Source: an uncultured Methanosarcinales archaeon
Lineage (GTDB): Archaea > Nanobdellota > Nanobdellia > Woesearchaeales > GW2011-AR9
Direction of reading: 5' to 3'
DNA: 64,000 bases
NCBI GenBank assembly: GCA_964344755.1
Contig: CAYFOH010000002.1
Span: 277 to 64,276 of the forward strand
The translations under genes and the position numbers were made by a program. Positions within the stretch are counted from its first letter, which is position 1, and each line of letters opens with the position of its first letter. The notes beneath the pieces are model-generated. The model had not been told where the DNA came from, made no database searches, and saw only the letters and a program-made list of their open reading frames with translations. Positions 1,716-51,454 of the stretch are shown piece after piece.

Positions 1716-1765
1716 GTTCGTAAGAGAAAAGAACTTCTACTTAAAGTTTACTCTTAATTTAAAAG

Positions 1766-1891
1766 GTATGTATTTAGTTAGATGGCCAAGAAGTTAATTA
1801 GATTCCTTCTTTTGCTTGCACAAAATTGATTTCCAGTTCTTACTTATTATTAGCTAGGACTGGTCTAATTAACGGCCAACTAAATACGTAC
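1766..1891. repeat. Palindromic intergenic repeat, copy 1. MITE-like family of about 126 bp with GTACGTATTTAGTT...AACTAAATACGTAC terminal inverted repeats
   Basis: Near-identical copies at 3778..3995, 42040..42165 and, reverse-complemented, 51283..51397. This copy lies between divergent trxA and a membrane-protein gene. Confidence 0.8.
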
Positions 1892-1951
1892 TTTAAAAGC
1901 AAACCTTTATAAAATGAAATAACGTTTCCTAATTATAAAAGAGGTTAAAAA

Positions 1952-10368: not shown

Positions 10369-10372
10369 AAGA

Positions 10373-10548
10373 TGGGCCTGGAGGGACTTTCCTAAACATC
10401 ACTATTCTTGGGATGAACGGATGTGAATCCCTTCGCCTCTCAAGTGGCGTGACACTTGTTTGAACCCCCGAGCTCCAGCTCTCTCAAGCGTTGAGTAGAA
10501 CGTAGCCATATAAGACTGGCGCTCTAAACCAGACTGAGCTACAGGCCC
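10373..10548 (-). tRNA. tRNA gene with two predicted introns, tentatively tRNA-Ile(UAU). Anticodon-loop intron of about 28 nt at 37/38 and a roughly 72-nt intron in the T-loop region
   Basis: Minus strand reads GGGCCUG-UA-GCUCAGUCUGGUUUAGAGC-G-CCAGU-CUUAUA[intron]A-GCUGG-AGCUC-GGGGG-UUCAAAC[intron]CCCUC-CAGGCCC-A. The 7-bp acceptor stem is perfect, the D-arm is canonical, and the spliced T-arm is GGGGG/CCCUC with a UUCAAAC loop. The discriminator A is followed by an oligo-U run. A TATA-like box (cttttaaag) lies about 27 nt upstream. The mature length would be 76 nt. Confidence 0.55.
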
Positions 10549-10653
10549 AAAATACTAGGAAACAAGTCACTTTAAAAGATTTTCGACAATAGAGCTTCAC
10601 TTTGGAGTTACTACAAACATATTTAAATCTAGAAAAAAGAGTTTTTAGCCTAG

Positions 10654-27929: not shown

Positions 27930-29939
27930 ATGCAAGAAGAGAATAATGAGATGTTTGTGGAAAAACAAAAAGAAATTTTAGAAGGTAAGACAACCAACTT
28001 ACCTTTTAGTTTGAATGCTTTACAGGTAATTGCCAAACGTTATTTAGTTAAAGACGTTGAAGGCAAAATCACCGAATCACCAGAGGAGATGTTTGAAAGA
28101 GTAGCAAGATCCTTGGCACAAGTAGAAAACCAATACGGAAAATCTGCAGAAGAGATTGAAAAAATCCGTCAAGATTTCTTAAGGGTCCTAATCAACAGAG
28201 AATTCACTCCAGCCGGAAGAACTTTAGCTAATGCTGGAGGTCCTACAAGACTAGTTTCAAATTGTATTGTCCTGCATATTGAAGACAGCATGCAGGGAAT
28301 TTTTAAAACTCTACAAGAAGCTTCTTTGTTACAACAAGCTGGTTCCGGCTTAGGCTTCCCACTACATTTGATGAGGCCAGCAGGTTTTTCAACAATTAAA
28401 TCCAGAGGAGAAGCCTCAGGCCCTGTCAGTTTCCTAAAAGTGTATAACACTGCGTTTGGTGTCATCAAACAACAAAATAGACACGGAGCTAATATGGCTG
28501 TTATGAGAGTTGATCATCCAGACATTCTCGAGTTTGTTCATTGCAAGGAACAAGAGGGAGCTATTAAAAATTTTAACGTGTCAGTTGGTCTTACTAATGA
28601 GTTTATGGAACAAGTTAAAAGAGATTCCCCTGAACCTTGGATGTGTGAATGGAATGGCCAAAAAATGAAGCCAAGAAGGATTTATCGTAACCAAAATTTT
28701 AGTGTGACTAAAGTAGAAGAAGTAAACATGACTGCTCGACAGTTGTTTGAAGAAATTATTACTTGTGCTTGGAATAACGGAGAGCCAGGTTGTGTGTTTT
28801 TAGATACTGTAAACGATACTAACCCTGTACCTGGTTTAGGTAGAATTGAAGCATGTAATCCTTGCGGCGAACAGTTCCTTCACGACGGCGATGTGTGTAA
28901 CTTAGGTTCAATCATTCTAGAAAATTTTGTTACCAAAGATCGACAAATCGACTATAATAGATTAAGAGAAGTTACTAGAACAGCTGTAAGAATGTTAGAC
29001 AACGTCGTGGACTTATCAGACTTTCCAGTGGATAAGGTGAATAACACTTTTAGAGGCAATCGAAGGCTTGGTCTTGGAATCATGGGTTTTGCTGACATGC
29101 TTTACAAGTTAAGAATTCCTTATAACTCTGCCGAAGGATTTGATACTGCGGAAAGAGTCATGGGTTGTATTCAAAGATCCGCTAAGGAGATGTCAAGAGA
29201 ATTAGCTGAAGAGAAAGGTGTATTTCCTAACTGGGAAAAAAGTGTTTATTATCAGAAAGGTATCAAGATTAGGAATGCTGCTTTGACTAACATTGCTCCA
29301 ACTGGAACAATCAGTATGGTCTTTGATGTTTCTGGAGGAGTAGAACCTTACTTTGCTCTTGCTTACCATTATAAAGGTATTTTAGGTGGCGACGTAGAAC
29401 TTTACTATGTTAACAAACATCTTAGGTCTGAATTGGAAAAAAAAGGCTTGCACACACAAGAAATAATGGAAAAAATTTGTAAAGAAGGTACCTTACAAAA
29501 CATTCCAGAGATCCCGGAAGAAACTAAAAGGGTCTTTGTGACATCCATGGATATCTCTCCTGAGGATCATACTAGAATGCAAGCTGCTTTCCAAAGACAT
29601 ATTGATAATGCAATCTCTAAAACAATTAACTTCCCAAACGGTGCAACAAAGGAAGATGTTTTACAAGGCTATCTTCTAGCTTGGGAGTTAGGTTGTAAGG
29701 GATGCACTGTTTACAGGGATGGAAGTAGGGAACTACAGGTATTGAATTTAAATAAAGACAAAGAACAGAACAAGGAAAAAGAAACTAAAGAACAAGTAAT
29801 GGTGCAAACAACCACTGATAGAATCAATAAACATCAGATCATGCGTTCTGGAGAGTGTCCAGAATGTTCTGGTCAGATCAGAGTTTCTGAGGGTTGTTAC
29901 ACCTGTTTAGACTGCGGTCATTCAGCTTGTAGTCTTTAA
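27930..29939 (+). CDS. nrdJ: class II (adenosylcobalamin-dependent) ribonucleotide reductase with C-terminal zinc ribbon
   Basis: 669 aa in NrdJ/RNR class II layout. Carries the class II active-site motifs CNPCGEQ and VSNCIVL, and the C-terminal CPECSG...CYTCLDCGHSAC. Confidence 0.9.
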   Translation: MQEENNEMFVEKQKEILEGKTTNLPFSLNALQVIAKRYLVKDVEGKITESPEEMFERVARSLAQVENQYGKSAEEIEKIRQDFLRVLINREFTPAGRTLANAGGPTRLVSNCIVLHIEDSMQGIFKTLQEASLLQQAGSGLGFPLHLMRPAGFSTIKSRGEASGPVSFLKVYNTAFGVIKQQNRHGANMAVMRVDHPDILEFVHCKEQEGAIKNFNVSVGLTNEFMEQVKRDSPEPWMCEWNGQKMKPRRIYRNQNFSVTKVEEVNMTARQLFEEIITCAWNNGEPGCVFLDTVNDTNPVPGLGRIEACNPCGEQFLHDGDVCNLGSIILENFVTKDRQIDYNRLREVTRTAVRMLDNVVDLSDFPVDKVNNTFRGNRRLGLGIMGFADMLYKLRIPYNSAEGFDTAERVMGCIQRSAKEMSRELAEEKGVFPNWEKSVYYQKGIKIRNAALTNIAPTGTISMVFDVSGGVEPYFALAYHYKGILGGDVELYYVNKHLRSELEKKGLHTQEIMEKICKEGTLQNIPEIPEETKRVFVTSMDISPEDHTRMQAAFQRHIDNAISKTINFPNGATKEDVLQGYLLAWELGCKGCTVYRDGSRELQVLNLNKDKEQNKEKETKEQVMVQTTTDRINKHQIMRSGECPECSGQIRVSEGCYTCLDCGHSACSL

Positions 29940-29947
29940 AAAAACAA

Positions 29948-31978
29948 ATGGCTTTAAAGAAAGTAATTAAAAGAGACAAAAGGGTTGTTCCTTTTGATCT
30001 AAATAGAATAAGTGATGCTATCTTTAGAGCCGCAATCACAGTCGGTGGGAAAGACAAAGATCTGGCTTTTTCTTTGGCCGAAGAAATTGCTCAAATCTTG
30101 GAATTAAAGTTTGAAAGTGAAGTGCCAACAGTTGAAAACGTACAAGACGTGGTAGAAAAAACTCTTATTAAGAGAGGACATGCTAAAACTGCTAAAGCTT
30201 ATATTTTACACCGACATCTTAAAGACGAAGAAAGAAGAAAAAGAACCCTTATCCTAGGAGTTGATCAACCAGAAGAAAACTTAAACTTTTCTAATCAAGC
30301 TCTTAAAATATTAGAAAGAAGATATTTGCTTCGGGATGACCAAGGAAAGGTTGTGGAAACGCCTAAAGGCATGTTGAGAAGGGTAGCCAAAAATATTGCC
30401 AAGGCTGACCTAAAATATGGGAAAGAAGATGTCAAAGAGATTGTTGAAGAATTTTTTGAAGTCATGGCTGAGTTGAAGTTTTTACCTAATTCGCCCACCC
30501 TAATGAACGCTGGAACAAAGACTCAGCAACTAAGCTCTTGTTTTGTTCTTCCCATTGAAGACAACATGGAAGGAATTTTTGGAACACTTAAAGATTCGGC
30601 AGTTATCCATCAAAGAGGGAGCGGAACTGGCTTTTCTTTCTCTCGTCTGCGTCCAAAAGGAGATCGTGTTAGAAGAAACCTAGGCGTAGCAGCTGGCCCA
30701 ATAGCTTTCCTAACAATCTATGATAAAAGTTTAGAGGCCATTAAGCAAGGAGGTATTCGTCCTGGCGCCAACATGGCTGTAATGAGGGTAGATCATCCAG
30801 ACATCATCCGTTTCATTGAATCAAAAAGAGATAAAAACAAACTTAAAAATTTTAACATATCTGTAGCCGTGACTGATCGTTTCATGCAGGCAGTTGAAAA
30901 TGATAGGGAATACTACATTACTAATCCACGAACCAACAAATATTCAGGGAGATTAAGAGCAAGAGATGTTTTTGCGTTAATAACACAAAACGCTTGGAAG
31001 ACTGGTGACCCTGGTTTGATTTTCCTTGATGAAATCAATCGTAAACATCCTGCCAAGCATTTAGGACTTATTGAAACAACTAATCAGTGCGGGGAAGCTC
31101 CATTACTTCCCTACGAAGGATGTGCTTTGGGTTCTATAAATCTTAACAAATTTTTTAAAGAAGGAAAGGTCGATTGGAAAGATTTAAAAAAAACTGTTCA
31201 AACGGCAGTACATTTTCTAGACAATGTTATTGATATGAATTCTTATCCTAAAAAAACAATTGAAGAAGCCACCAAAAGAACAAGAAAGTTTGGGTTAGGG
31301 ATGATGGGTTTTGCAGATCTCCTCTGTAAACTTGATCTTTCCTACGGCTCTAAAGAAAGCCTAGAATTTGCTGAAGAGTTAATCTCTTTTATTAAAAAAA
31401 TTGCTTACGAGTCTTCAATGAAACTAGCTGAAGAAAGGGGTGTTTGTCCTGCCTGGGAAGGTTCAGACCACCAAAAACAAGGAAGAAAAATGAGGAACAT
31501 GACTTGTCTTTCTATTTCTCCCACCGGAACAATAAGCATTTTGGCTGATGCCTCTTCTGGTTGTGAACCTTTATTTGCTATTTCCTATCAGAAGATGGTT
31601 TTTGGTGACACAGATTTGGTTTATTTAAATCAAGATTTTAAAAAGTTAGCCGTTGAAAAAGAATTTTATTCACCAGAACTTGTAAGAAAAATATCTCTCA
31701 GTGGAACCATCCAACATCTTAAAGAAATTCCAAAACATGTAAGAGACATATTCGTTACAGCACAGGACATTAGCCCCGAAGAACATATTAAAATGCAAGC
31801 AGTGCTACAAAAAGAAGTTGACAATTCCATCTCTAAAACAATTAATTTTGAAAAAACAGCTTCCATTAAGGACGTAGAAAATGCCTATCTGTTAGCCTGG
31901 AAGAACAAATGTAAGGGAATCACCATTTACAGAGATGGAAGCTACGAAGACCAAGTTATAACTTTGGGGGAGGGATAA
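29948..31978 (+). CDS. nrdJ: class II ribonucleotide reductase paralog with N-terminal ATP-cone, no C-terminal zinc ribbon
   Basis: N-terminal VIKRDKRVVPFDLNRISDAI is an ATP-cone. The rest is collinear with the upstream NrdJ, with the matching motifs TNQCGEAP and SSCFVLPIED. Confidence 0.85.
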   Translation: MALKKVIKRDKRVVPFDLNRISDAIFRAAITVGGKDKDLAFSLAEEIAQILELKFESEVPTVENVQDVVEKTLIKRGHAKTAKAYILHRHLKDEERRKRTLILGVDQPEENLNFSNQALKILERRYLLRDDQGKVVETPKGMLRRVAKNIAKADLKYGKEDVKEIVEEFFEVMAELKFLPNSPTLMNAGTKTQQLSSCFVLPIEDNMEGIFGTLKDSAVIHQRGSGTGFSFSRLRPKGDRVRRNLGVAAGPIAFLTIYDKSLEAIKQGGIRPGANMAVMRVDHPDIIRFIESKRDKNKLKNFNISVAVTDRFMQAVENDREYYITNPRTNKYSGRLRARDVFALITQNAWKTGDPGLIFLDEINRKHPAKHLGLIETTNQCGEAPLLPYEGCALGSINLNKFFKEGKVDWKDLKKTVQTAVHFLDNVIDMNSYPKKTIEEATKRTRKFGLGMMGFADLLCKLDLSYGSKESLEFAEELISFIKKIAYESSMKLAEERGVCPAWEGSDHQKQGRKMRNMTCLSISPTGTISILADASSGCEPLFAISYQKMVFGDTDLVYLNQDFKKLAVEKEFYSPELVRKISLSGTIQHLKEIPKHVRDIFVTAQDISPEEHIKMQAVLQKEVDNSISKTINFEKTASIKDVENAYLLAWKNKCKGITIYRDGSYEDQVITLGEG

Positions 31979-41996: not shown

Positions 41997-42039
41997 ATTA
42001 TGTTAAAACTATGATTCTTTATAAAATTATTCTAAAATA

Positions 42040-42165
42040 GTACGTATTTAGTTAGATGGCCAAGAAGTTAATTAGAATTCTTCTTTTGCTTGCACAAAGT
42101 TGATCTCCAGTTTCAAAATATAATTAGCAAAAACTGGGCTAATTAACGGCCAACTAAACACGTAC
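42040..42165. repeat. palindromic intergenic repeat, copy 3
   Basis: GTACGTATTTAGTTAGATGGCCAAGAAGTTAATTAG...CTAATTAACGGCCAACTAAACACGTAC, 126 bp, between two minus-strand genes. Confidence 0.8.
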
Positions 42166-44990: not shown

Positions 44991-47099
44991 TTATTCTAAA
45001 GGAACACCACTCCAAAGAGTCCAATCTTCTGACGGTGAGTAACCACCAAACGTGAAATAAGGCGGCTGGTTTTCACCAAAATGTCTGTAAACAACATTGC
45101 CCCAGCTTCGAGAACCAGTCCAGATTTTGTCTGTTCCGTAAATATTAGCACCAAAATGCTGCCAAGTTTTCAATAGGGTTTGGTGTCCAGAGGAATCTGT
45201 ATAAAAATCAGCTCCGGGTTCCGCCACAATATCTCCCTTAAATCCATATTTTTTAAAAAGTTTAAGAGCTTCGTCTATAGGAGCATTACCTTGCCCAGCT
45301 GCTAAGTGTTCATCTTCATAACCATAATTATCTACTATATGTAAATGGCCCACAATCTTCTTTTTGGCCATCTCTTCAACGCGAGAAAGCATCCATTTAT
45401 TGAACTCTTCCTTATTTTCTTTCATGGATTTCTTTTTGTCTCCCTTCCAATATTTCCACCACATATTACAATGTGCCGTATCAAAAGTTGCATATATATG
45501 TTGTTCTGCCCTTTTCTTGGCTTCTTTTTCGTCCATTTTCCTTTCTTTAACTAACCGTTTGGCCATAGCTTCTCGACTCTTTTCAATTAGGTTAATTAAT
45601 TCGTCAGGATGGCCACCATAACTTTCAGGAAACAAATTTTCCACGGCTATAGCAATTGGTCTTTTCAATTTTTTTTGTTTTTCCAGCTTATTACTTTCAT
45701 CCATAGCTTTTAAGCCAGCATCCGCATAAGCCTTGAAACTTTCTTCTAAGCCATATTTGTCAGCACTTCTAACGTACCTAATTGTCTCCAAAGCTTCTTC
45801 TGATTGGGCAAATTGAGAAGAAGAGGCTTCTTTAGCTTGTTTAATTTGCCTGTTATAAAAATCAAGCTCTCTGTCAATGATCTGTGTAGGGAACTTAGAA
45901 TCAGCTGGCACTAACCCACCAGCAATCTGTTCAACTTGTCTCTTTAACCGCCATTTTTCTTCCTCTGAAGTCGTCTCTTCAATTTTTTTATAGAATTCTT
46001 TAGCCTTCTTTAATTTTTTAATTCTTTCAATATGTTCATCAAATTGACCACCGTAATGTACTGCATAACCACGACTATTGGCTGCCTGTGTTTCTAATGT
46101 AGAAATAATATAAGCTTCTTCTGGTAAAACATGAATGTCTTTCTCGCTTTTCCCAGCTTCCATGGCTTCACTTACTCTTTCTCTCCAAATTGAATTTTTC
46201 TTCTCTTCCTCACTCATTTTATTCCAATTTCTAAAATGTCTTCTAGCTCTTTCAGTCATCCTAGAAGCTTCATCCTCTAACTCTTTCCAACCCATCTGTT
46301 GTGTAACAAACTTACCATCTTTATACAAAGGCACTCTTTCGTCAACATCAACAGGATTATTCCAATAGTCAACATAAGAACCTGGAGCTACTTTTTTGCC
46401 ATTTACTTCAAAAGGTTTCCCTTTATTTTGCTTCCAAAGTTCAGGAGTATGTTCCTGGCTATATGTTAACCAAACCGGCCTTGTAACTTTTCTATTTCTC
46501 CTAGCCTCTTGTATAACGTTCCCTGTTCTTTTATCAATAACCCTATGGCCCCCTCTTTCTTTCTCTTCTTCAAACATCTCAAATTTATCCTTCCATTTCC
46601 CTTTGTTGTTCCAATCTGCATCTGCCATGTGCCTAAAAAATTCTCCACTATGTACAACAATCGGGCCACCTTGAGCTACATCAGCAGCAAAGTCTATCGC
46701 TCTTTTAATTTCTCTAATAGAACGATCACGATTTTGTTTGGTAAAATTACCTTGTTGGTCCATCCCAGCCAAACCCATAACACCAACACTTGAATGGGTA
46801 GTAAAATCAAATTTGTTAGCTCTCTGTAACTCCCTTAAGGCTTGGCGTTGTTTTTTACCATAAGTTCCTGGGCTGTGAGCTTGACCACTTCCCTTTCCCA
46901 TCCCCATAAAAGTAATTTCCATTTTTTTTACCCCAGAGCGCATTTTAGCAGCTAAAGCAGGGATGTTAGGGACGGGACCTAGACCCATACTAAAACCAAT
47001 ATCTTTTACAGAAACACCAACATCATTAGTCGCATTTTGGATGGGGGTAATGTCATAAGCCCTGTCCATTGTATGATGATATTTGCCGAACTCTACCAT
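44991..47099 (-). CDS. xylose-isomerase-like TIM-barrel (sugar phosphate isomerase/epimerase, AP endonuclease 2 family) protein with a large charged insertion
   Basis: N-terminal ...GGPIVVHSGEF and C-terminal IVGHLHIVDNYGYEDEHLAAGQGNAPIDEA match the conserved His/Asp metal-site blocks of this TIM-barrel family. The central roughly 350 aa is K/E-rich. Confidence 0.5.
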   Translation of the reverse strand: MVEFGKYHHTMDRAYDITPIQNATNDVGVSVKDIGFSMGLGPVPNIPALAAKMRSGVKKMEITFMGMGKGSGQAHSPGTYGKKQRQALRELQRANKFDFTTHSSVGVMGLAGMDQQGNFTKQNRDRSIREIKRAIDFAADVAQGGPIVVHSGEFFRHMADADWNNKGKWKDKFEMFEEEKERGGHRVIDKRTGNVIQEARRNRKVTRPVWLTYSQEHTPELWKQNKGKPFEVNGKKVAPGSYVDYWNNPVDVDERVPLYKDGKFVTQQMGWKELEDEASRMTERARRHFRNWNKMSEEEKKNSIWRERVSEAMEAGKSEKDIHVLPEEAYIISTLETQAANSRGYAVHYGGQFDEHIERIKKLKKAKEFYKKIEETTSEEEKWRLKRQVEQIAGGLVPADSKFPTQIIDRELDFYNRQIKQAKEASSSQFAQSEEALETIRYVRSADKYGLEESFKAYADAGLKAMDESNKLEKQKKLKRPIAIAVENLFPESYGGHPDELINLIEKSREAMAKRLVKERKMDEKEAKKRAEQHIYATFDTAHCNMWWKYWKGDKKKSMKENKEEFNKWMLSRVEEMAKKKIVGHLHIVDNYGYEDEHLAAGQGNAPIDEALKLFKKYGFKGDIVAEPGADFYTDSSGHQTLLKTWQHFGANIYGTDKIWTGSRSWGNVVYRHFGENQPPYFTFGGYSPSEDWTLWSGVPLE

Positions 47100-47143
47100 G
47101 TTTTTTAGTAATGGTTTTAAGTATATAAAATTAATCTAAGAAG

Positions 47144-47429
47144 TGGCTTCATCCGGAATAGAGTAAATATGTATACTAACACACCCTACTCCATTTTTGT
47201 TTTCTTAACCGTCGCCGCCATTATTACTACATTTTACGCTAGTAATAATGTAGTGGCGCGATGGAACTGATTATGTATCTATACGAAGTATAGAGTTATA
47301 GTCAGTGAAATAGGGTAAGAAAACAAAAACTACGTCTGGCCATGCAGTGATATGCATAGCATATCCCAGCATATCACGGCACAGACGGTTGTGTTAATAT
47401 ACATTATTGTGTTATTCCGGATGTGGCCA
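47144..47429. repeat. structured non-coding element flanked by 18-bp imperfect inverted repeats (GTGGCTTCATCCGGAATA ... TATTCCGGATGTGGCCA)
   Basis: A 286-bp GC-richer segment with no ORF. It contains several internal hairpins: CGCCATTATTACTACATT/AATGTAGTGGCG, CTATAC-gaa-GTATAG and GTGATATGC...GCATATCAC. Confidence 0.5.
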
Positions 47430-47477
47430 TCAGGGCAGAAAAATTTATAAACCTTTTTTGGTTAACATTAACCAAAA

Positions 47478-48056
47478 ATGGATAAATTACTAAAAATTAT
47501 CTATACATTAGGTAAAAATCTTTCTAATGAAATAACTATACGTCAGCTTTCAATAGATGCAAATGTATCATATACAACTACATATCGTTTAATTAAGCAA
47601 AAAAAAGCTCTTTTTTCTATAAATCAAAAAGGGAATATAAAACTATGTTCACTAAATAGGGAAGATTCTATTGTCAAAAATTATCTGATCCTAGCTGAAA
47701 GAGATCAAGCAAACGATTTTTTGAAAAAAAATAAAGTTTTCAAAATTCTAAGATCAGAATTGCCAAAGGGAGATTATTCTCTTCTTTTATTTGGTTCAAG
47801 AGCAGAAGGGACACATAGAGAAAAAAGTGATGCCGATATTTGTATTATTAACAAGGATGGAAAAAAATTCATTAACTTCTCAAAGTTTGAGTTAATTCAT
47901 AAAATAGAAATCAACACAATGTCCTTCACTAAAAAGGAATTTACACTAATGTTAAAAGAAAAAGAACATAATGTCGGGAAAGAGATATTAAAGAAACATA
48001 TTATTTTATATGGAGAAGAACATTTTTGGAACCTTGTATGGAAAAAAGGCATTTGA
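47478..48056 (+). CDS. minimal nucleotidyltransferase (MNT, Pol-beta superfamily) with N-terminal HTH
   Basis: LLLFGSRAEGTHREKSDADICII matches GSx9-13DxD. An N-terminal wHTH-like segment precedes it. Confidence 0.7.
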   Translation: MDKLLKIIYTLGKNLSNEITIRQLSIDANVSYTTTYRLIKQKKALFSINQKGNIKLCSLNREDSIVKNYLILAERDQANDFLKKNKVFKILRSELPKGDYSLLLFGSRAEGTHREKSDADICIINKDGKKFINFSKFELIHKIEINTMSFTKKEFTLMLKEKEHNVGKEILKKHIILYGEEHFWNLVWKKGI

Positions 48057-48567
48057 TAAAATAAGATATAAAGAAGAATTTGAAAAATTAGTTGCAGATA
48101 AAGGTAATAAAAAATTTTTTATCAAGAAAAGCAATGCCTCTTTCAAAATAAAGAAATTTATTAAGAAAGGCAGAGATAGTCTTGCGTTAGCTAATTGCAT
48201 AAGAAAATTTAATGAAAACGCTAAGGATTATTGGATTATCACGATTTGTTATTACTCCATGTTATATTTAGCTAAAGCTGCTGTTTTGACAAAAGGCTAT
48301 GAAACTGATGATCACTATGCTACACAAATTGCTTTAGGATATTTGCTTGTACCCAATGAAATAGAAAAAAAAGATCTGGAATTATTAGAACAAACTCATA
48401 AAATATTTGAGGATGACTATGTTGACTATTTTGAAGATGCAAGAAAGGAGAGTAGCACCAGCAGATATAGTGCAACTAAAGTTTATGCTCAAAGAAGAGT
48501 GAAAGAAGTTTTTGATAACGCCACTGAATTTATAGAAAAACTGAGTCTTATGTTAGAGGAAGAATAA
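48010..48567 (+). CDS. HEPN-domain protein (partner of MNT)
   Basis: All-alpha roughly 185-aa protein with the ICYYSMLYLAKAAVLTKGYETDDHYATQ core typical of HEPN. Overlaps the MNT gene by 47 nt. Confidence 0.55.
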   Translation: MEKNIFGTLYGKKAFDKIRYKEEFEKLVADKGNKKFFIKKSNASFKIKKFIKKGRDSLALANCIRKFNENAKDYWIITICYYSMLYLAKAAVLTKGYETDDHYATQIALGYLLVPNEIEKKDLELLEQTHKIFEDDYVDYFEDARKESSTSRYSATKVYAQRRVKEVFDNATEFIEKLSLMLEEE

Positions 48568-48735
48568 AGGATAAAGCCAGAGGGTCACTAAAGATATACC
48601 TAGTAGTATTCCTACTTGGTTTTGTAAGAATTTTTGACAAATTAACCTTACTTCCTCCTACATTATCTTAACAGAAGCAGAGCTAATTAAAACTTACTTG
48701 TTGCTTGAGATTTTACCCAGAATTGTTTTCTTTAC

Positions 48736-49650
48736 TTATAATGCTTTCTCTAAGTAACATCCATTATCTTCTGTAATTCCTGCTTTTCTTATAACTGGTT
48801 CATAGTTAGCTAAAAAGCCATTATGTTCTTCAATAAACATTGGATGTTCTTGCGGTTTGATAACTTTAATTTTTTTATACCCATTATCTTTCCCAAAATT
48901 GGCAACTTGCTCCAAGATGAATCTTCGTGGTCCCCTCCCAAGAACATTTCCTATCCTGCTATATTCTCTTTCCGCTTCAAGTCGCTTCGCCTTTCCACTA
49001 GGATGAATAGCTCTTACAGGATCATTAGAACCAAATCTTCTTCCTTGTAAGGTCATAACATAGATATCGTTATTTGTTTCATCAACAAAAAAACTTGCTT
49101 TTGTAATATAGCCAGTAGCACTAGAAATTAATGTTTTATCTTGTTTAGCTAACAAATAAGCAACCCCAAAATAATCATCTGTTAATCCATGAGCCATGAT
49201 TAATTGAAGTCCATCATCAAGTCTTGTAATTCCATGCTCAGCCATAATTCTTCTTCTATTATCAAGAGTTTCGTGGATTATGCGAGAATTACTTTCAATT
49301 TTCTCTATAACACCATCAATATTTGGTTGAACTAAACCATGAAATAAAAAATGAGGATAACATAAATTATCTGTGTCAGGAAATGGTTCTGCAAAATTCT
49401 GAACTGCTTGAGCAACGTTATGAGAAAAATCAAGTTTATCATCACCAGGACTCAAATAAAATGCCCTTCCTAAAAGATACATTACCAACTCAGTATTGTG
49501 ACCAAATGTTATTCCTTTTCTCCCACCAAAGCTTGATTCAGGATCAACAAGATTTAGAGTATCAACTACTGCTTCTTGGCTAAAGGTTTCTGGAAAGTCT
49601 AAATAATCCCTTAATCTATCTGCAAATCCAGTTACATTAATATTGACCAT
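48736..49650 (-). CDS. hypothetical protein (GC-richer than surroundings)
   Basis: 304-aa ORF. Its nucleotide composition looks GC-richer by eye than the local roughly 33%. No recognised motif. Confidence 0.4.
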   Translation of the reverse strand: MVNINVTGFADRLRDYLDFPETFSQEAVVDTLNLVDPESSFGGRKGITFGHNTELVMYLLGRAFYLSPGDDKLDFSHNVAQAVQNFAEPFPDTDNLCYPHFLFHGLVQPNIDGVIEKIESNSRIIHETLDNRRRIMAEHGITRLDDGLQLIMAHGLTDDYFGVAYLLAKQDKTLISSATGYITKASFFVDETNNDIYVMTLQGRRFGSNDPVRAIHPSGKAKRLEAEREYSRIGNVLGRGPRRFILEQVANFGKDNGYKKIKVIKPQEHPMFIEEHNGFLANYEPVIRKAGITEDNGCYLEKAL

Positions 49651-49726
49651 TATTGTTTGGACAATAATTATTTTTTAAAAAACTATTGGCCATTAAAGAG
49701 GTTTTAGTAAAAAACACTTTAAAACT

Positions 49727-51223
49727 CTAAGAACAAGTTTCAAAAATCTTCCCCATTCTAATGCTGAAAGACACTTGAGGAAAGTTAGGATGAGTAATCA
49801 CAGCACTTTCTTGGTTTTCTCTTAGTGTTATGACAGCTTCGTTAATAATACGACCAGTGTCTTTTTTGATGATGCTAATAGGAACAACAGCATCTTCTCC
49901 TATGCAATGATCTGGAGCCTGTTTAATCTTCCATTCCAAAGCACCGGCTGCTGTGTAGCTGCCAGATCCTGGCTGAACACGGTAAACTTCCCCATCACTA
50001 GTTGAAAGATTTAGAGAATGATAATTACACATTCTTGCACAATTATCTGATCCCTGATACAAACCAGCTAACGTCCCGCACGTTCCACCAATACAATATT
50101 CATTAGAACCACACTGTAAGTTGTCTGTACAATCCTCCCCTTGGCCCACTTGTTCCAAACCTTGAGATCTTGCTTCAGTTACATCACAAATACCGTTAGT
50201 ATTCTCATCTAAACAACAGCTATCACCTTCAGGTGTTGGAATATGGGGAGATGTACATTCCACCGAATAACTAACTCTCTTACTTTCATTATCAATATGA
50301 AGGTCCGTGAAAATAGCTTTACCCACGACACCACTAAGAATAAAAAAGACGCCTAAAATTAAAAGTATAGAAACACCTGCAATTGCCAAGATCTTATTTC
50401 TATCATAATTTTTAGTTGTCTGTTTTGTTTTAGTTTGGGGTTGGCCTCTTTTTTTAAGATATTTTTTATAGTTTTTTTCCGTCACTTCTTGATAAACTTT
50501 GTCCACGTCCTGTTTTGACCAGCCAGCATTTAACAAATTTTGTTTAATTTGAGCCTCCTTTAAACCACCTTTGATTTGATTGTTGACATAAGAGTGGACA
50601 TTTGAAACCTTACTTCTGCTACCCATCCCTTTCCTGTTTAAGTAATGAAATACAATACTACCGGCTCCAAGAACAAAGATTATAAAGAAAATAATTGAAA
50701 GTTTACGATTTGAAGCCTGTTTCTTTAAAGTTTCTTGGATTTGATTTAAACTTGATTCAGTAATGTTCAGATTTTCCTCCAAACCAGAAATACCTAAAGC
50801 AACTATATTAAGCTCAGAATCAAGCCTCGTTTCAACTTCATCAACATTTCTTTGTAAAGTACTTATACTATTCTTTAGACGATTAACATCTGTTTTAACA
50901 CTAGAAATATCTGATTTCAAAGAAATAATCTCCTCTCTGGCCTTAGAGACATCCTCTTCTAACAACAAAATCTCTTCCTCTAAGGGCGTGAGTTCTAAGA
51001 AATTATCCGTTTCATTGTTACTTACAACAGTTTGTTCTTCTGTTACTAAAAAACAAGTACCTTCAACAATGTCACAATACATCTCTTCCCCTTCGAAAGC
51101 TTGAGCCAGACACTCTTGGTCGGATTGACAAACTATTTGAGTATCATAATCAGCAATTGTAGAGAAAGTTGAAACTAATAATAACAAAACAAGAACTATC
51201 AAAAGATTGTTTTTACCCATCAT
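49727..51223 (-). CDS. secreted/membrane-anchored Cys-rich coiled-coil protein with conserved C-terminal domain (paralog of 6973..7560)
   Basis: Signal peptide, a Cys-rich segment, a coiled coil, two TM helices, a second Cys-rich segment, then GSYTAAGALEWKIK...ITHPNFPQVSF...ETCS. This is homologous to the C-terminus of the 6973 protein. Confidence 0.5.
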   Translation of the reverse strand: MMGKNNLLIVLVLLLLVSTFSTIADYDTQIVCQSDQECLAQAFEGEEMYCDIVEGTCFLVTEEQTVVSNNETDNFLELTPLEEEILLLEEDVSKAREEIISLKSDISSVKTDVNRLKNSISTLQRNVDEVETRLDSELNIVALGISGLEENLNITESSLNQIQETLKKQASNRKLSIIFFIIFVLGAGSIVFHYLNRKGMGSRSKVSNVHSYVNNQIKGGLKEAQIKQNLLNAGWSKQDVDKVYQEVTEKNYKKYLKKRGQPQTKTKQTTKNYDRNKILAIAGVSILLILGVFFILSGVVGKAIFTDLHIDNESKRVSYSVECTSPHIPTPEGDSCCLDENTNGICDVTEARSQGLEQVGQGEDCTDNLQCGSNEYCIGGTCGTLAGLYQGSDNCARMCNYHSLNLSTSDGEVYRVQPGSGSYTAAGALEWKIKQAPDHCIGEDAVVPISIIKKDTGRIINEAVITLRENQESAVITHPNFPQVSFSIRMGKIFETCS

Positions 51224-51282: not shown

Positions 51283-51397
51283 AACGTATTTAGTTGGCCG
51301 TTAATTATACCAGTTTTTGTTAATTATAGTTTAAAACTGGAGATTAACTTTGTGCAAGCAAAAGAAGGAATTTAATTAACTTCTTGGCCATCTAACT
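51283..51397. repeat. palindromic intergenic repeat, copy 4 (reverse orientation, 115 bp)
   Basis: The reverse complement reads GTACGTATTTAGTTAGATGGCCAAGAAGTTAATTAAATTCC...ATAATTAACGGCCAACTAAATACGTTC. It lies between a divergent gene pair. Confidence 0.8.
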
Positions 51398-51454
51398 AAA
51401 TACGTACATTTTACTGAAGTAAAATTTATATAACCAATCAGACTTAAAGGGAAA

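What the first reader, a model, noticed from the sequence alone, without database searches (positions are those of the whole stretch)
47144..49700. Small accessory islet: IR-flanked structured element, MNT/HEPN pair and a GC-richer orphan gene
A 286-bp ORF-free, GC-richer segment is bounded by 18-bp imperfect inverted repeats (GTGGCTTCATCCGGAATA / TATTCCGGATGTGGCCA) and is packed with internal hairpins. It is followed by an overlapping minimal-nucleotidyltransferase/HEPN gene pair, the classic toxin-antitoxin/abortive-infection architecture. Downstream, a convergent 304-aa orphan ORF appears GC-richer by eye than the local roughly 33% background. The whole block sits between a core TIM-barrel gene and a secreted-protein gene and looks horizontally acquired. 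The IR-flanked segment could be a second MITE family, a recombination site, or a structured ncRNA.
Basis: partly seen in the sequence, partly recalled or inferred. Interest (0 to 1): 0.5.

Follow-up and report, generated by a model that had tools for sequence, protein, structure and literature searches.

The report
Palindromic orphan element beside MNT–HEPN cassette
A DPANN archaeon (Woesearchaeota-like) has a 2.6-kb accessory insert between two core genes, made of a mobile MNT–HEPN gene pair, a GNAT-fold gene and an extremely hairpin-rich 288-bp non-coding segment that matches no known RNA family and looks more like palindromic, possibly mobile DNA than a conserved RNA gene.

Summary
The described sequence is there. 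Element A (47143-47430) has only ORFs of 33 aa or fewer, is closed by an imperfect 18-nt inverted repeat that extends to 43-nt arms, and is the most structured stretch of the 64-kb window (RNA MFE -122.9 kcal/mol, z = -11.5).

Both strands fold almost equally well, as RNA and as DNA. 104 of 110 predicted pairs are Watson-Crick and GC is only 39%, against 57-64% for the window's tRNAs. It matches no Rfam family and no sequence in any searched collection, and it is absent upstream of every MNT homologue examined. A DNA-level palindromic or foldback element is therefore more likely than a conserved ncRNA, but this is unproven.

Contig-end arithmetic from two assemblers points to a graph branch at A's 3' edge, so A probably occurs in a second context.

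The MNT/HEPN pair is real, but the HEPN lacks the Rx4-6H motif. It is a self-contained cassette with a conserved promoter and operator, and it is far better conserved than the flanking core gene. The "orphan" gene has average GC, belongs to a small Woesearchaeota family and has a GNAT fold.

Four of five relatives have the two flanking genes adjacent, which supports an insertion. Interest is modest.

The parts
47143..47430 (.). Element A: a 288-bp non-coding, palindrome-dense segment. A terminal 40-bp interrupted helix encloses a 14-17-bp stem carrying two hairpins, plus a third hairpin.
   Evidence: Fold z -11.5 (+) and -9.9 (-) as RNA, -11.3 and -10.7 as DNA. 110 pairs, of which 104 are Watson-Crick and 6 are G-U. 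No Rfam match. No second copy in the window.
47143..47186 (.). Left arm of the outer inverted repeat (5' strands of P1 and P1b).
   Evidence: the repeat finder I1: 43-nt arms, 77% complementary. Helix list.
47387..47430 (.). Right arm of the outer inverted repeat. Its end (47428-47430) coincides with an assembly-graph branch and with the left edge of MNT-cassette homology.
   Evidence: Contig starts at 47302 (k127, two runs) and 47400 (k31). Cassette homology begins at 47429-47433.
47194..47329 (.). Inner domain. A 14-17-bp A/T-rich stem (47194-47210 / 47313-47329) encloses hairpin 47209-47264 (loop GCTA, with an alternative register) and hairpin 47266-47306 (loop C-GAA-G).
47334..47386 (.). 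Third hairpin, with two mutually exclusive registers caused by the direct repeat AGCATATCCC/AGCATATCAC. It contains a TGGCCA site at 47337-47342, where contigs of one sample end.
   Evidence: (D1, I5, I6).
47122..47129 (-). TATA box (TTTATATA on the - strand) of the TIM-barrel gene, 23 nt from its ATG. It is palindromic enough to serve a + strand transcript of A as well.
   Evidence: Read directly from the sequence. The spacing matches the 24-25 nt between the TATA-like boxes and the mature 5' ends of the two tRNA genes. This is an inference.
47433..47477 (+). Conserved promoter/operator of the MNT-HEPN cassette: TATA TTTATAAA at 47444-47451 and palindrome TGGTTAACATTAACCA at 47459-47474, abutting the ATG (a leaderless mRNA is inferred). 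The T6 run at 47454-47459 is unique to this window.
   Evidence: Alignments across up to eight other loci.
47478..48056 (+). 192-aa protein: an N-terminal putative wHTH (inferred) plus a minimal nucleotidyltransferase with GSX10DXD (GSRAEGTHREKSDAD).
   Evidence: PF01909 at 2e-11. NCBIfam MntA_antitoxin at 34 bits, below the 60-bit cut-off. More than 190 homologues at 60-84% identity, nearly all 187-202 aa and most exactly 192 aa.
48010..48567 (+). 185-aa HEPN-domain protein lacking Rx4-6H. It has an invariant DARKESSTSRYSATKVY and DDHY. The ORF overlaps MNT by up to 47 nt.
   Evidence: PF05168 at 4e-6. Alignment with three homologues at 71-84% identity.
48736..49650 (-). 304-aa protein of a small, largely Woesearchaeota/Nanoarchaeota family: an N-terminal helical part plus a GNAT-fold domain. 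Its GC is average.
47135..47142 (.). Left copy of the 8-bp direct repeat TCTAAGAA, abutting element A.
   Evidence: (D4). A match of this length is within chance expectation (P about 0.27).
49726..49733 (.). Right copy of TCTAAGAA, overlapping the stop codon of the 498-aa secreted-protein gene.
   Evidence: Removing 47143-49733 leaves a 36-nt spacer, similar to the roughly 40 nt in relatives.

Best explanation
The block from about 47143 to 49725 is a mosaic accessory insert in a core chromosomal region of a Woesearchaeota-type archaeon. It has three independent parts.

1. A self-contained MNT-HEPN cassette. It runs from about 45 nt upstream of the ATG to the HEPN stop codon. It carries its own TATA box and a palindromic operator that is probably bound by the N-terminal wHTH of the MNT protein. 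This cassette moves horizontally among Woesearchaeota.

2. A GNAT-fold gene that is also found at 87% nucleotide identity in an unrelated context.

3. Element A. I read A as a DNA-level palindromic (foldback) element: a recently formed or recently moved piece of non-coding DNA whose nested, near-perfect inverted repeats can extrude as hairpins or cruciforms on either strand. It sits exactly at the junction where the cassette was joined to the chromosome, and it occurs in at least one further sequence context in the source population.

Shown: the anatomy, the extreme strand-symmetric fold, the absence from relatives and databases, the insertion relative to relatives, and the horizontal mobility of the two gene modules.

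Inferred: that A is repeated or mobile (from contig-end arithmetic), that it acts as DNA rather than RNA, and that it took part in the recombination that built the islet.
For: Element A:
- Fold z is -11.5 and -9.9 as RNA on the two strands, and -11.3 and -10.7 as DNA.
- 104 of 110 pairs are Watson-Crick, with 6 G-U on + against 5 on -, so there is no strand preference.
- GC is 0.389, against 0.57-0.64 for the window's tRNAs.
- Hairpin loops are C-GAA-G and C-GCTA-G. From my own knowledge, GNA/GNNA loops closed by C-G are especially stable in DNA.
- There is no Rfam hit, even at E <= 10.
- It is absent upstream of MNT in L012, L015, L018, L029, L030, L031 and L039.

Junction and assembly evidence:
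- Cassette homology starts at 47429-47433.
- The k127 contigs of two runs start at 47302 and the k31 contig of one of those runs starts at 47400. Both imply a branch at 47428-47430.
- Four independent short-read assemblies break inside A, yet assemble through the 85-92%-identical MITE copies elsewhere.

Insertion and mobility:
- The two flanking genes are adjacent in 4 of 5 relatives.
- The core TIM protein reaches at most 59% identity, against 84% and 82% for the islet genes.
- The same genome carries an active-looking MITE family with 8-bp target-site duplications.
Against: - No second copy of A was actually seen. There is none in the 64-kb window, in phage or plasmid collections or in IMG/VR. 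The JGI pattern scan gave only unrelated hits.
- There is no target-site duplication around A, and no transposase, integrase or RT was found in the window among the ORFs that could be annotated.
- The branched three-hairpin architecture is unusual for MITEs.
- A is GC-richer than ordinary spacers and lies between TATA-like boxes. A T6 run, unique to this window, follows it. All of this also fits a transcribed RNA gene.
- The contig-end argument is indirect.
- The flanking 8-bp direct repeat is not statistically significant.
Confidence: 0.5

Rival explanations
1. Element A is the gene for a lineage-specific, highly structured non-coding RNA of about 290 nt. It would be transcribed from the + strand, starting near 47146-47153, and terminate at the T6 run 47454-47459.
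For: - The fold is extremely stable and well defined, and the + strand is 9 kcal/mol better than the - strand.
- GC is enriched relative to intergenic DNA.
- TATA-like boxes lie 21-31 nt upstream, comparable to the tRNA genes.
- The T6 run is present only in this window's version of the MNT promoter spacer.
Against: - No homologue exists, so there is no covariation to assess.
- There is no Rfam family.
- The helices are almost all Watson-Crick and A/U-rich, and fold equally well on the opposite strand and as DNA.
- Hairpin loops are triloops or GCUA rather than GNRA/UNCG.
- GC is far below that of the genome's stable RNAs.
- It is not conserved at this locus or next to any related cassette.
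Confidence: 0.22
2. A is a replication, transfer or attachment site of a small defunct integrated plasmid- or virus-like element of about 2.6 kb. It would sit next to the att core and function as single-stranded or cruciform DNA.
For: - A abuts the left junction of the insert, and an 8-bp direct repeat brackets the block.
- The structure is strand-symmetric as DNA.
- The loops are of the stable DNA minihairpin type.
- A TA-like module is typical plasmid cargo (general knowledge).
Against: - The block contains no Rep, integrase or relaxase. Its only other gene has a GNAT fold.
- The direct repeat is at chance level.
- The two gene modules have independent histories, which argues against a single integrated replicon.
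- There are no hits in plasmid or viral collections.
Confidence: 0.1
3. A is a type I toxin-like locus. It would be a heavily folded mRNA with 5'-3' fold-back pairing, encoding a 33-aa hydrophobic peptide (47169-47270, MYTNTPYSIFVFLTVAAIITTFYASNNVVARWN) whose start codon is buried in helix P1b.
For: - The ORF has a predicted transmembrane-like segment.
- The start codon lies inside a helix, and a terminal 5'-3' helix resembles the hok mRNA fold-back (plus general knowledge).
- Two hairpins have alternative registers.
Against: - ORFs of 32-33 aa occur on both strands at about the rate expected by chance in AT-rich DNA (my estimate).
- There is no clear Shine-Dalgarno sequence.
- The peptide is not present in a 15-billion-protein collection.
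- There are no homologues.
Confidence: 0.05
4. A is an invertible promoter switch (an inverton) between the divergent TIM and MNT genes, flipped by a recombinase encoded elsewhere. Mixed orientations would explain the assembly breaks.
For: - Its size, flanking inverted repeats and position between two divergent promoters fit known invertons (general knowledge).
- Assemblies break inside it.
Against: - The contig-end positions do not fit an inversion between the arms. The inferred left boundary is 45 nt inside A, while the right boundary is 0-2 nt inside.
- Both genes keep their own TATA boxes outside A.
- No recombinase was found in the window.
Confidence: 0.05
5. A is an assembly artefact (a chimeric hairpin join).
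For: No short-read contig spans it.
Against: Independent contigs from three samples and two assemblers reproduce both halves with 100% identity and overlap by 13-36 nt in agreement with the window.
Confidence: 0.03

Closest known systems
MITEs / foldback palindromic repeats (including REP/BIME- or ERIC-like elements)
   Same: It is short, non-coding and intergenic, with terminal inverted repeats. It folds strongly on both strands, probably occurs in more than one context, and the host genome carries another MITE family.
   Different: It has no target-site duplication and no observed second copy. Its ends do not resemble the resident MITE's TIR (GTACGTATTTAGTTGGCC). It has a branched three-hairpin interior rather than a simple rod. 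Its fold z-score (-11) is about twice that of the resident MITEs (-3 to -6).
Type VII toxin-antitoxin HepT/MntA (the MNT-HEPN module)
   Same: Adjacent, overlapping MNT and HEPN genes. The MNT has GSX10DXD. It gives weak hits to NCBIfam MntA and to the PADLOC candidate PDC-M05A/B.
   Different: The HEPN has no Rx4-6H RNase motif (an invariant RKESSTSRY sits there instead). The MNT carries an extra N-terminal DNA-binding-like domain. The operator palindrome is conserved. Sequence conservation across Woesearchaeota is unusually high. No toxicity has been tested.
hok/sok-type type I toxin mRNAs
   Same: A folded RNA of about 300 nt with 5'-3' end pairing and a small hydrophobic ORF whose start codon is sequestered.
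   Different: The ORF is not statistically supported. No antisense RNA is defined, and there are no homologues. To my knowledge such systems have not been established in archaea.
Integron attC recombination sites
   Same: An imperfect palindrome that functions as folded single-stranded DNA at cassette boundaries, next to TA-type cargo.
   Different: There are no R''/R' (RYYYAAC/GTTRRRY) core sites. It is about twice the maximum attC length. It lies 5' of a promoter-bearing cassette rather than 3' of a promoterless one. There is no integrase.
GNAT acetyltransferases (for the 304-aa gene)
   Different: It gives no sequence-profile hit to any GNAT Pfam. It has an extra N-terminal helical domain and its own conserved motifs (CYPHFLLHG, NxRIIHET, EHPMxIExHxGF). 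Its substrate is unknown.

Membership tests
MITE | Terminal inverted repeats | tested here: met
   15 of 18 positions are complementary at the tips, and the arms extend to 43 nt at 77%.
MITE | Target-site duplication flanking the element | tested here: not met
   The flanks are ...TCTAAGAA|A|CAGGGCAG... with no direct repeat at A's two ends. The only TCTAAGAA partner lies 2.6 kb away and is at chance level.
MITE | Multiple copies in the genome | tested here: inconclusive
   No copy was found in the 64-kb window or in any searchable collection. Contig-end arithmetic implies a second context in the source metagenome.
MITE | Related autonomous transposase/IS with matching ends | tested here: not met
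   No transposase Pfam domain was found in the ORFs scanned or in the called genes of the contig loci that cover the flanks. Eleven of the scanned ORFs have no Pfam hit and about 14 further ORFs were never scanned, so the test is incomplete.
Any Rfam RNA family (including archaeal SRP RNA, RNase P RNA, riboswitches, ribozymes, large ncRNAs) | Covariance-model score at or above the gathering threshold | tested here: not met
   There are no hits at the gathering threshold in the window other than 2 tRNAs. At E <= 10 there are only spurious miRNA/snoRNA matches far below threshold.
Structured ncRNA (generic) | Helices supported by compensatory changes in homologues | not testable with these tools
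   No homologue of A could be found, so no alignment exists.
Type VII TA HepT/MntA | MNT with the GSX10DXD catalytic motif | tested here: met
   GSRAEGTHREKSDAD is present in the 192-aa protein. PF01909 scores 2e-11.
Type VII TA HepT/MntA | HEPN toxin with the Rx4-6H RNase motif | tested here: not met
   No Arg is followed by His within 4-6 residues. The conserved segment is DARKESSTSRYSATKVY in all four aligned homologues.
Type VII TA HepT/MntA | Curated family-model score (NCBIfam MntA_antitoxin) | tested here: not met
   34.3 bits against a cut-off of 60.
Type VII TA HepT/MntA | Toxicity of HEPN neutralised by MNT-dependent AMPylation | not testable with these tools
   This needs an experiment.
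Integron attC | R''/L''...L'/R' core sites (RYYYAAC ... GTTRRRY), 55-150 nt | tested here: not met
   The ends are GTGGCTTC... and ...GTGGCCAT, and the length is 288 nt.
Retron ncRNA | Adjacent reverse transcriptase | tested here: not met
   No RT domain is present in the flanking genes or in the scanned ORFs of the window.
Inverton (invertible promoter) | Both orientations present in the population; recombinase | tested here: inconclusive
   No reads are available. The contig-end positions do not fit an arm-to-arm inversion. No recombinase was found in the window.
GNAT superfamily (304-aa protein) | GNAT alpha/beta fold | tested here: met
GNAT superfamily (304-aa protein) | Sequence-profile membership / acetyl-CoA binding motif | tested here: not met
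   No Pfam or NCBIfam GNAT model hits. The profile search of PDB sequences is empty.

The most novel reading that the evidence does not exclude
Element A is the first seen member of an undescribed class of branched, hairpin-dense elements of DPANN archaea. It would be either a functional structured RNA of about 290 nt (possibly a fold-back-regulated small-toxin mRNA) or a hairpin-based mobile or recombination element that captures promoter-bearing gene cassettes such as MNT-HEPN at its 3' edge.
Probability: 0.2. Interest if true: 0.6.

Novelty: new variant of a known kind. Interest (0 to 1): 0.3.

Why it matters
If A is a hairpin-based mobile or recombinogenic element, it would be a handle on how small gene cassettes are shuffled between DPANN genomes. 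These genomes carry few recognisable transposases or integrases. If A is instead an RNA, it would be a new large structured RNA from a poorly explored archaeal lineage.

Independently, the MNT-HEPN module here is an unusually conserved Woesearchaeota-wide cassette with an inferred wHTH domain and an operator, and its HEPN lacks the RNase motif. This cautions against labelling every MNT/HEPN pair a toxin-antitoxin system. As it stands, the evidence rests on one sequence, and most of the finding is ordinary accessory-gene mosaicism.

Tried and rejected
- **Known RNA families.** I ran Rfam at gathering threshold on the whole window and at E <= 10 on 47050-47520. Nothing credible came up. By eye, the SRP helix-8 motifs and the RNase P CR-I/CR-V motifs are absent.
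- **Other copies of A.**
  - Window, pattern search with 3 mismatches and blastn with word size 7: none.
  - Phage and plasmid BLAST: none.
  - Four IMG/VR pattern scans for A: none.
  - One JGI metagenome scan with both IR cores: 4 hits, all unrelated, being palindromic artefacts or coding DNA.
- **Synteny route.** The five GTDB relatives of the TIM gene carry no A, and no closer relative exists.
- **Association with MNT/HEPN.** Nine other cassette contexts were fetched and none carries A. The upstream region of the closest cassette, L012, is not significantly structured.
- **Association with the 304-aa gene.** In L025 and L028 the flanks are unrelated to the window.
- **Direct repeat as a target-site duplication.** The 8-bp and 9-bp matches are within chance (P 0.27 and 0.10).
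- **Small ORFs in A.** None is present in the protein collection.
- **Inversion model for the assembly breaks.** The numbers do not fit (note).
- **Recombinase, transposase or RT in the window.** None was found among about 50 ORFs scanned or annotated.
- **Literature searches** on DPANN MITEs and ncRNAs gave nothing specific.
Full report
**Organism and setting.** The window has 33.7% GC. Its genes include archaeal eIF2-gamma, Orc1/Cdc6, PolB, RNR and a Rad50-like ATPase. The closest genomes are Woesearchaeota/Nanoarchaeota MAGs. The source is therefore a DPANN archaeon. Identical sequence occurs in ENA assemblies of PRJEB17505 and on an NCBI contig of 66,438 nt.

**Checking the observation.**
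- The inverted repeat is real. GTGGCTTCATCCGGAATA at 47143-47160 pairs with 47413-47430 (3 mismatches in 18; 2 matches against 0.02 expected). It extends to 43-nt arms at 77% complementarity.
- Between the arms lie a 14-17-bp stem (47194-47210 / 47313-47329) enclosing two hairpins, and a third hairpin at 47334-47386.
- Only ORFs of 33 aa or fewer are present.
- The fold is extreme. As RNA it is -122.9 kcal/mol with z -11.5 on the + strand, and -113.5 with z -9.9 on the - strand. As DNA the z-scores are -11.3 and -10.7.
- It is the most structured 200-nt window of the 64 kb, 5.2 sd below the GC regression. Nothing in 98 kb of related Woesearchaeota loci comes close.
- The resident MITE copies score z -2.6 to -5.9 and the tRNAs score -1.5 to -2.6.
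- Element GC is 0.389, above most intergenic spacers (0.21-0.31) but far below the tRNAs (0.57-0.64).
- MNT (PF01909) and HEPN (PF05168) are confirmed.
- The claim that the 304-aa ORF is GC-richer fails. Its GC is 0.337, rank 32 of 67 ORFs, and MNT is the most AT-rich ORF of the window.
- It is not an orphan either. It has 54 representative clusters in 1.84 billion proteins and homologues up to 82% identity.

**The islet.**
- The TIM-barrel protein is a core Woesearchaeota gene. It has 334 homologues, but none above 59% identity apart from itself.
- In L007, L008, L010 and L011 a weak homologue of the 498-aa secreted protein lies directly upstream of TIM on the same strand. The spacer is 40 nt in L008 and L011. 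No MNT, HEPN or 304-aa homologue occurs in those loci.
- The block 47143-49725 is therefore an insertion relative to relatives. L009 has two other unknown genes at the same spot.
- An 8-bp direct repeat TCTAAGAA brackets the block, and excising it would restore a 36-nt spacer. However, matches of that length are expected by chance in this AT-rich DNA (P about 0.27). I do not count it as a target-site duplication.

**The MNT-HEPN cassette.**
- The 192-aa protein has more than 190 homologues at 60-84% identity, nearly all 187-202 aa (most exactly 192) and all from DPANN archaea. The HEPN partner is 71-84% identical.
- At DNA level the homology with seven other loci (72-82% identity) starts at window position 47429-47440 and stops at the HEPN stop codon.
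- The promoter region is conserved in every locus examined as TTTATAAACC-N6-GGTTAAYAYTAACCAAAWATGG. This comprises a TATA box and a perfect palindrome abutting the ATG. I infer a leaderless, autoregulated operon whose operator is bound by the N-terminal wHTH-like part of the MNT protein.
- The cassette sits in unrelated neighbourhoods.
- Together with the 84% versus 59% identity contrast, this indicates horizontal mobility.
- The MNT has GSX10DXD. The HEPN has no Rx4-6H and carries an invariant DARKESSTSRYSATKVY instead. The NCBIfam MntA model scores below its cut-off.
- It therefore works like an MNT-HEPN pair in architecture, but it cannot be filed as a HepT/MntA toxin-antitoxin.

**The 304-aa gene.**
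- A homologue at 87% nucleotide identity (L025-L027) has completely different flanks. This gene has also moved horizontally, independently of the cassette.

**What is element A?**
- It matches no Rfam family, even at E <= 10.
- It has no second copy in the window and no match in phages, plasmids, IMG/VR or, by a two-arm pattern, JGI metagenomes.
- It is not part of the MNT cassette. It is absent upstream of all nine other cassettes examined. The equivalent region of the closest one (L012) is not significantly structured (z -0.7 and -2.7).
- No close relative of the organism exists in the databases, so covariation cannot be tested.

The single-sequence evidence leans towards DNA rather than RNA:
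- 104 of 110 pairs are Watson-Crick, with 6 G-U on + and 5 on -.
- Both strands fold almost equally well, as RNA or as DNA.
- The helices are A/T-rich, and GC is far below that of the genome's stable RNAs.
- Two of the three loops are C-GAA-G and C-GCTA-G. From my own knowledge these are hallmark stable DNA minihairpin loops.
- By contrast, a structured stretch in L007 (5400-5650) is strongly strand-specific (z -5.3 against -1.4).

**Assembly behaviour.** All four short-read assemblies that carry this locus break inside A, although they run for 6-17 kb on either side. They also pass through three MITE copies that are 85-92% identical to one another.
- In run ERR2281800 the megahit k127 contig starts at 47302 and the Logan k31 contig starts at 47400. 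Adding k-1 to each start gives 47302+126 = 47428 and 47400+30 = 47430.
- A second run also starts at 47302.
- A coverage gap cannot explain this. The k127 contig proves that reads span 47302-47428, yet the k31 contig stops at 47400.
- The simplest reading is a de Bruijn graph branch whose first context-specific base is 47428-47430. That is the 3' edge of A and the left edge of cassette homology.
- At least 126 nt of A therefore appear to occur in a second context in the source community.
- The same contig runs uninterrupted through the right edge of the islet, so this is not a presence/absence polymorphism of the whole block.
- The left-hand contig ends (47314 and 47337) do not fit a simple arm-to-arm inversion.
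- This is indirect evidence, and I mark it as inference (note).

**Verdict on mechanism.**
- Most likely (about 0.5): A is a palindromic foldback DNA element, recently formed or mobile. It lies at the recombination junction where the MNT-HEPN cassette was joined.
- It fails the MITE membership test on target-site duplication and on demonstrable copy number, so I do not file it as a MITE.
- A lineage-specific structured RNA remains a serious rival (about 0.2). In its favour are the GC enrichment, the plausible TATA spacing compared with the tRNA genes, and a T6 run that is unique to this window.
- The minor rivals are an origin or att site of a defunct plasmid-like element, a type I toxin-like mRNA with a 33-aa hydrophobic ORF, an inverton and an assembly artefact. 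Each is discussed with its refuting test in the rivals section.

**Novelty and interest.** The islet and its genes are ordinary accessory mosaicism, with one twist: an HEPN without the RNase motif and a conserved operator. A is unusual in degree (z about -11, branched), but it is a single orphan instance without comparative support. Interest is 0.3.

Noticed in passing
window 1757-1913, 42012-42163, 51284-51413: A MITE family of about 127 nt in three copies (85-92% identical). Its TIR is GTACGTATTTAGTTGGCC and it has 8-bp AT-rich target-site duplications (CTTTTAAA, TATTTTAG). It has no sequence relation to element A.
   Followed up: partly
window, 31 sites including 47337-47342, 47424-47429, 49687-49692 and inside the MITE TIRs: The palindrome TGGCCA occurs 31 times against 8.4 +/- 2.7 expected. 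Contigs of sample ERZ930068 end on the two outer bases of the site at 47337-47342. The inferred graph branch at 47428-47430 lies in the site at 47424-47429.
   Followed up: partly
L012 5636-5966, L030 1-190, L025 150-482: A GC-richer non-coding "element B" with core GACTACGNAGTGGGAGNTACGAGG. It lies upstream of MNT in two other lineages, and a related piece lies upstream of the 304-aa homologue in L025. There, parts of it recur inverted downstream of the gene (perfect 17- and 16-nt inverted repeats). Contigs often break in it. It is not in the window or in IMG/VR.
   Followed up: partly
L033-L037 (contexts of MNT homologue P0006): Five distinct contig sets from different samples start 220-264 nt upstream of the MNT ATG. 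For k141 this places a graph branch at the stop codon of the upstream core gene (DUF655). It suggests a presence/absence polymorphism of the MNT-HEPN cassette in those populations.
   Followed up: no
window 48010-48567 and homologues: The HEPN partner lacks the Rx4-6H motif in all four sequences aligned. DDHY and RKESSTSRY are invariant. In relatives the start codon corresponds to window codon 13, so the true overlap with MNT may be shorter than 47 nt.
   Followed up: partly
window 10369-10653: A 285-nt intergenic spacer with the highest GC of any spacer (0.43) and above-average predicted structure. It has no Rfam match at E <= 1.
   Followed up: partly
L007 5400-5650: A strongly strand-specific structured stretch (z -5.3 on +, -1.4 on -) in a related Woesearchaeota MAG. 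It is a candidate ncRNA.
   Followed up: no
L012 7088-7360: The region downstream of HEPN in the closest cassette (which includes a 43-aa ORF) folds with z -5.5 on the + strand. The contig ends there.
   Followed up: no
window 27930-31978: Two tandem class-II-like ribonucleotide reductase large-subunit genes (669 and 676 aa). Only the second has an ATP-cone domain.
   Followed up: no
L021 2765-3036 and L023 3-287 (JGI contigs): The pattern scan picked up long perfect foldback palindromes in unrelated metagenome contigs. These are probably assembly hairpin chimeras.
   Followed up: no
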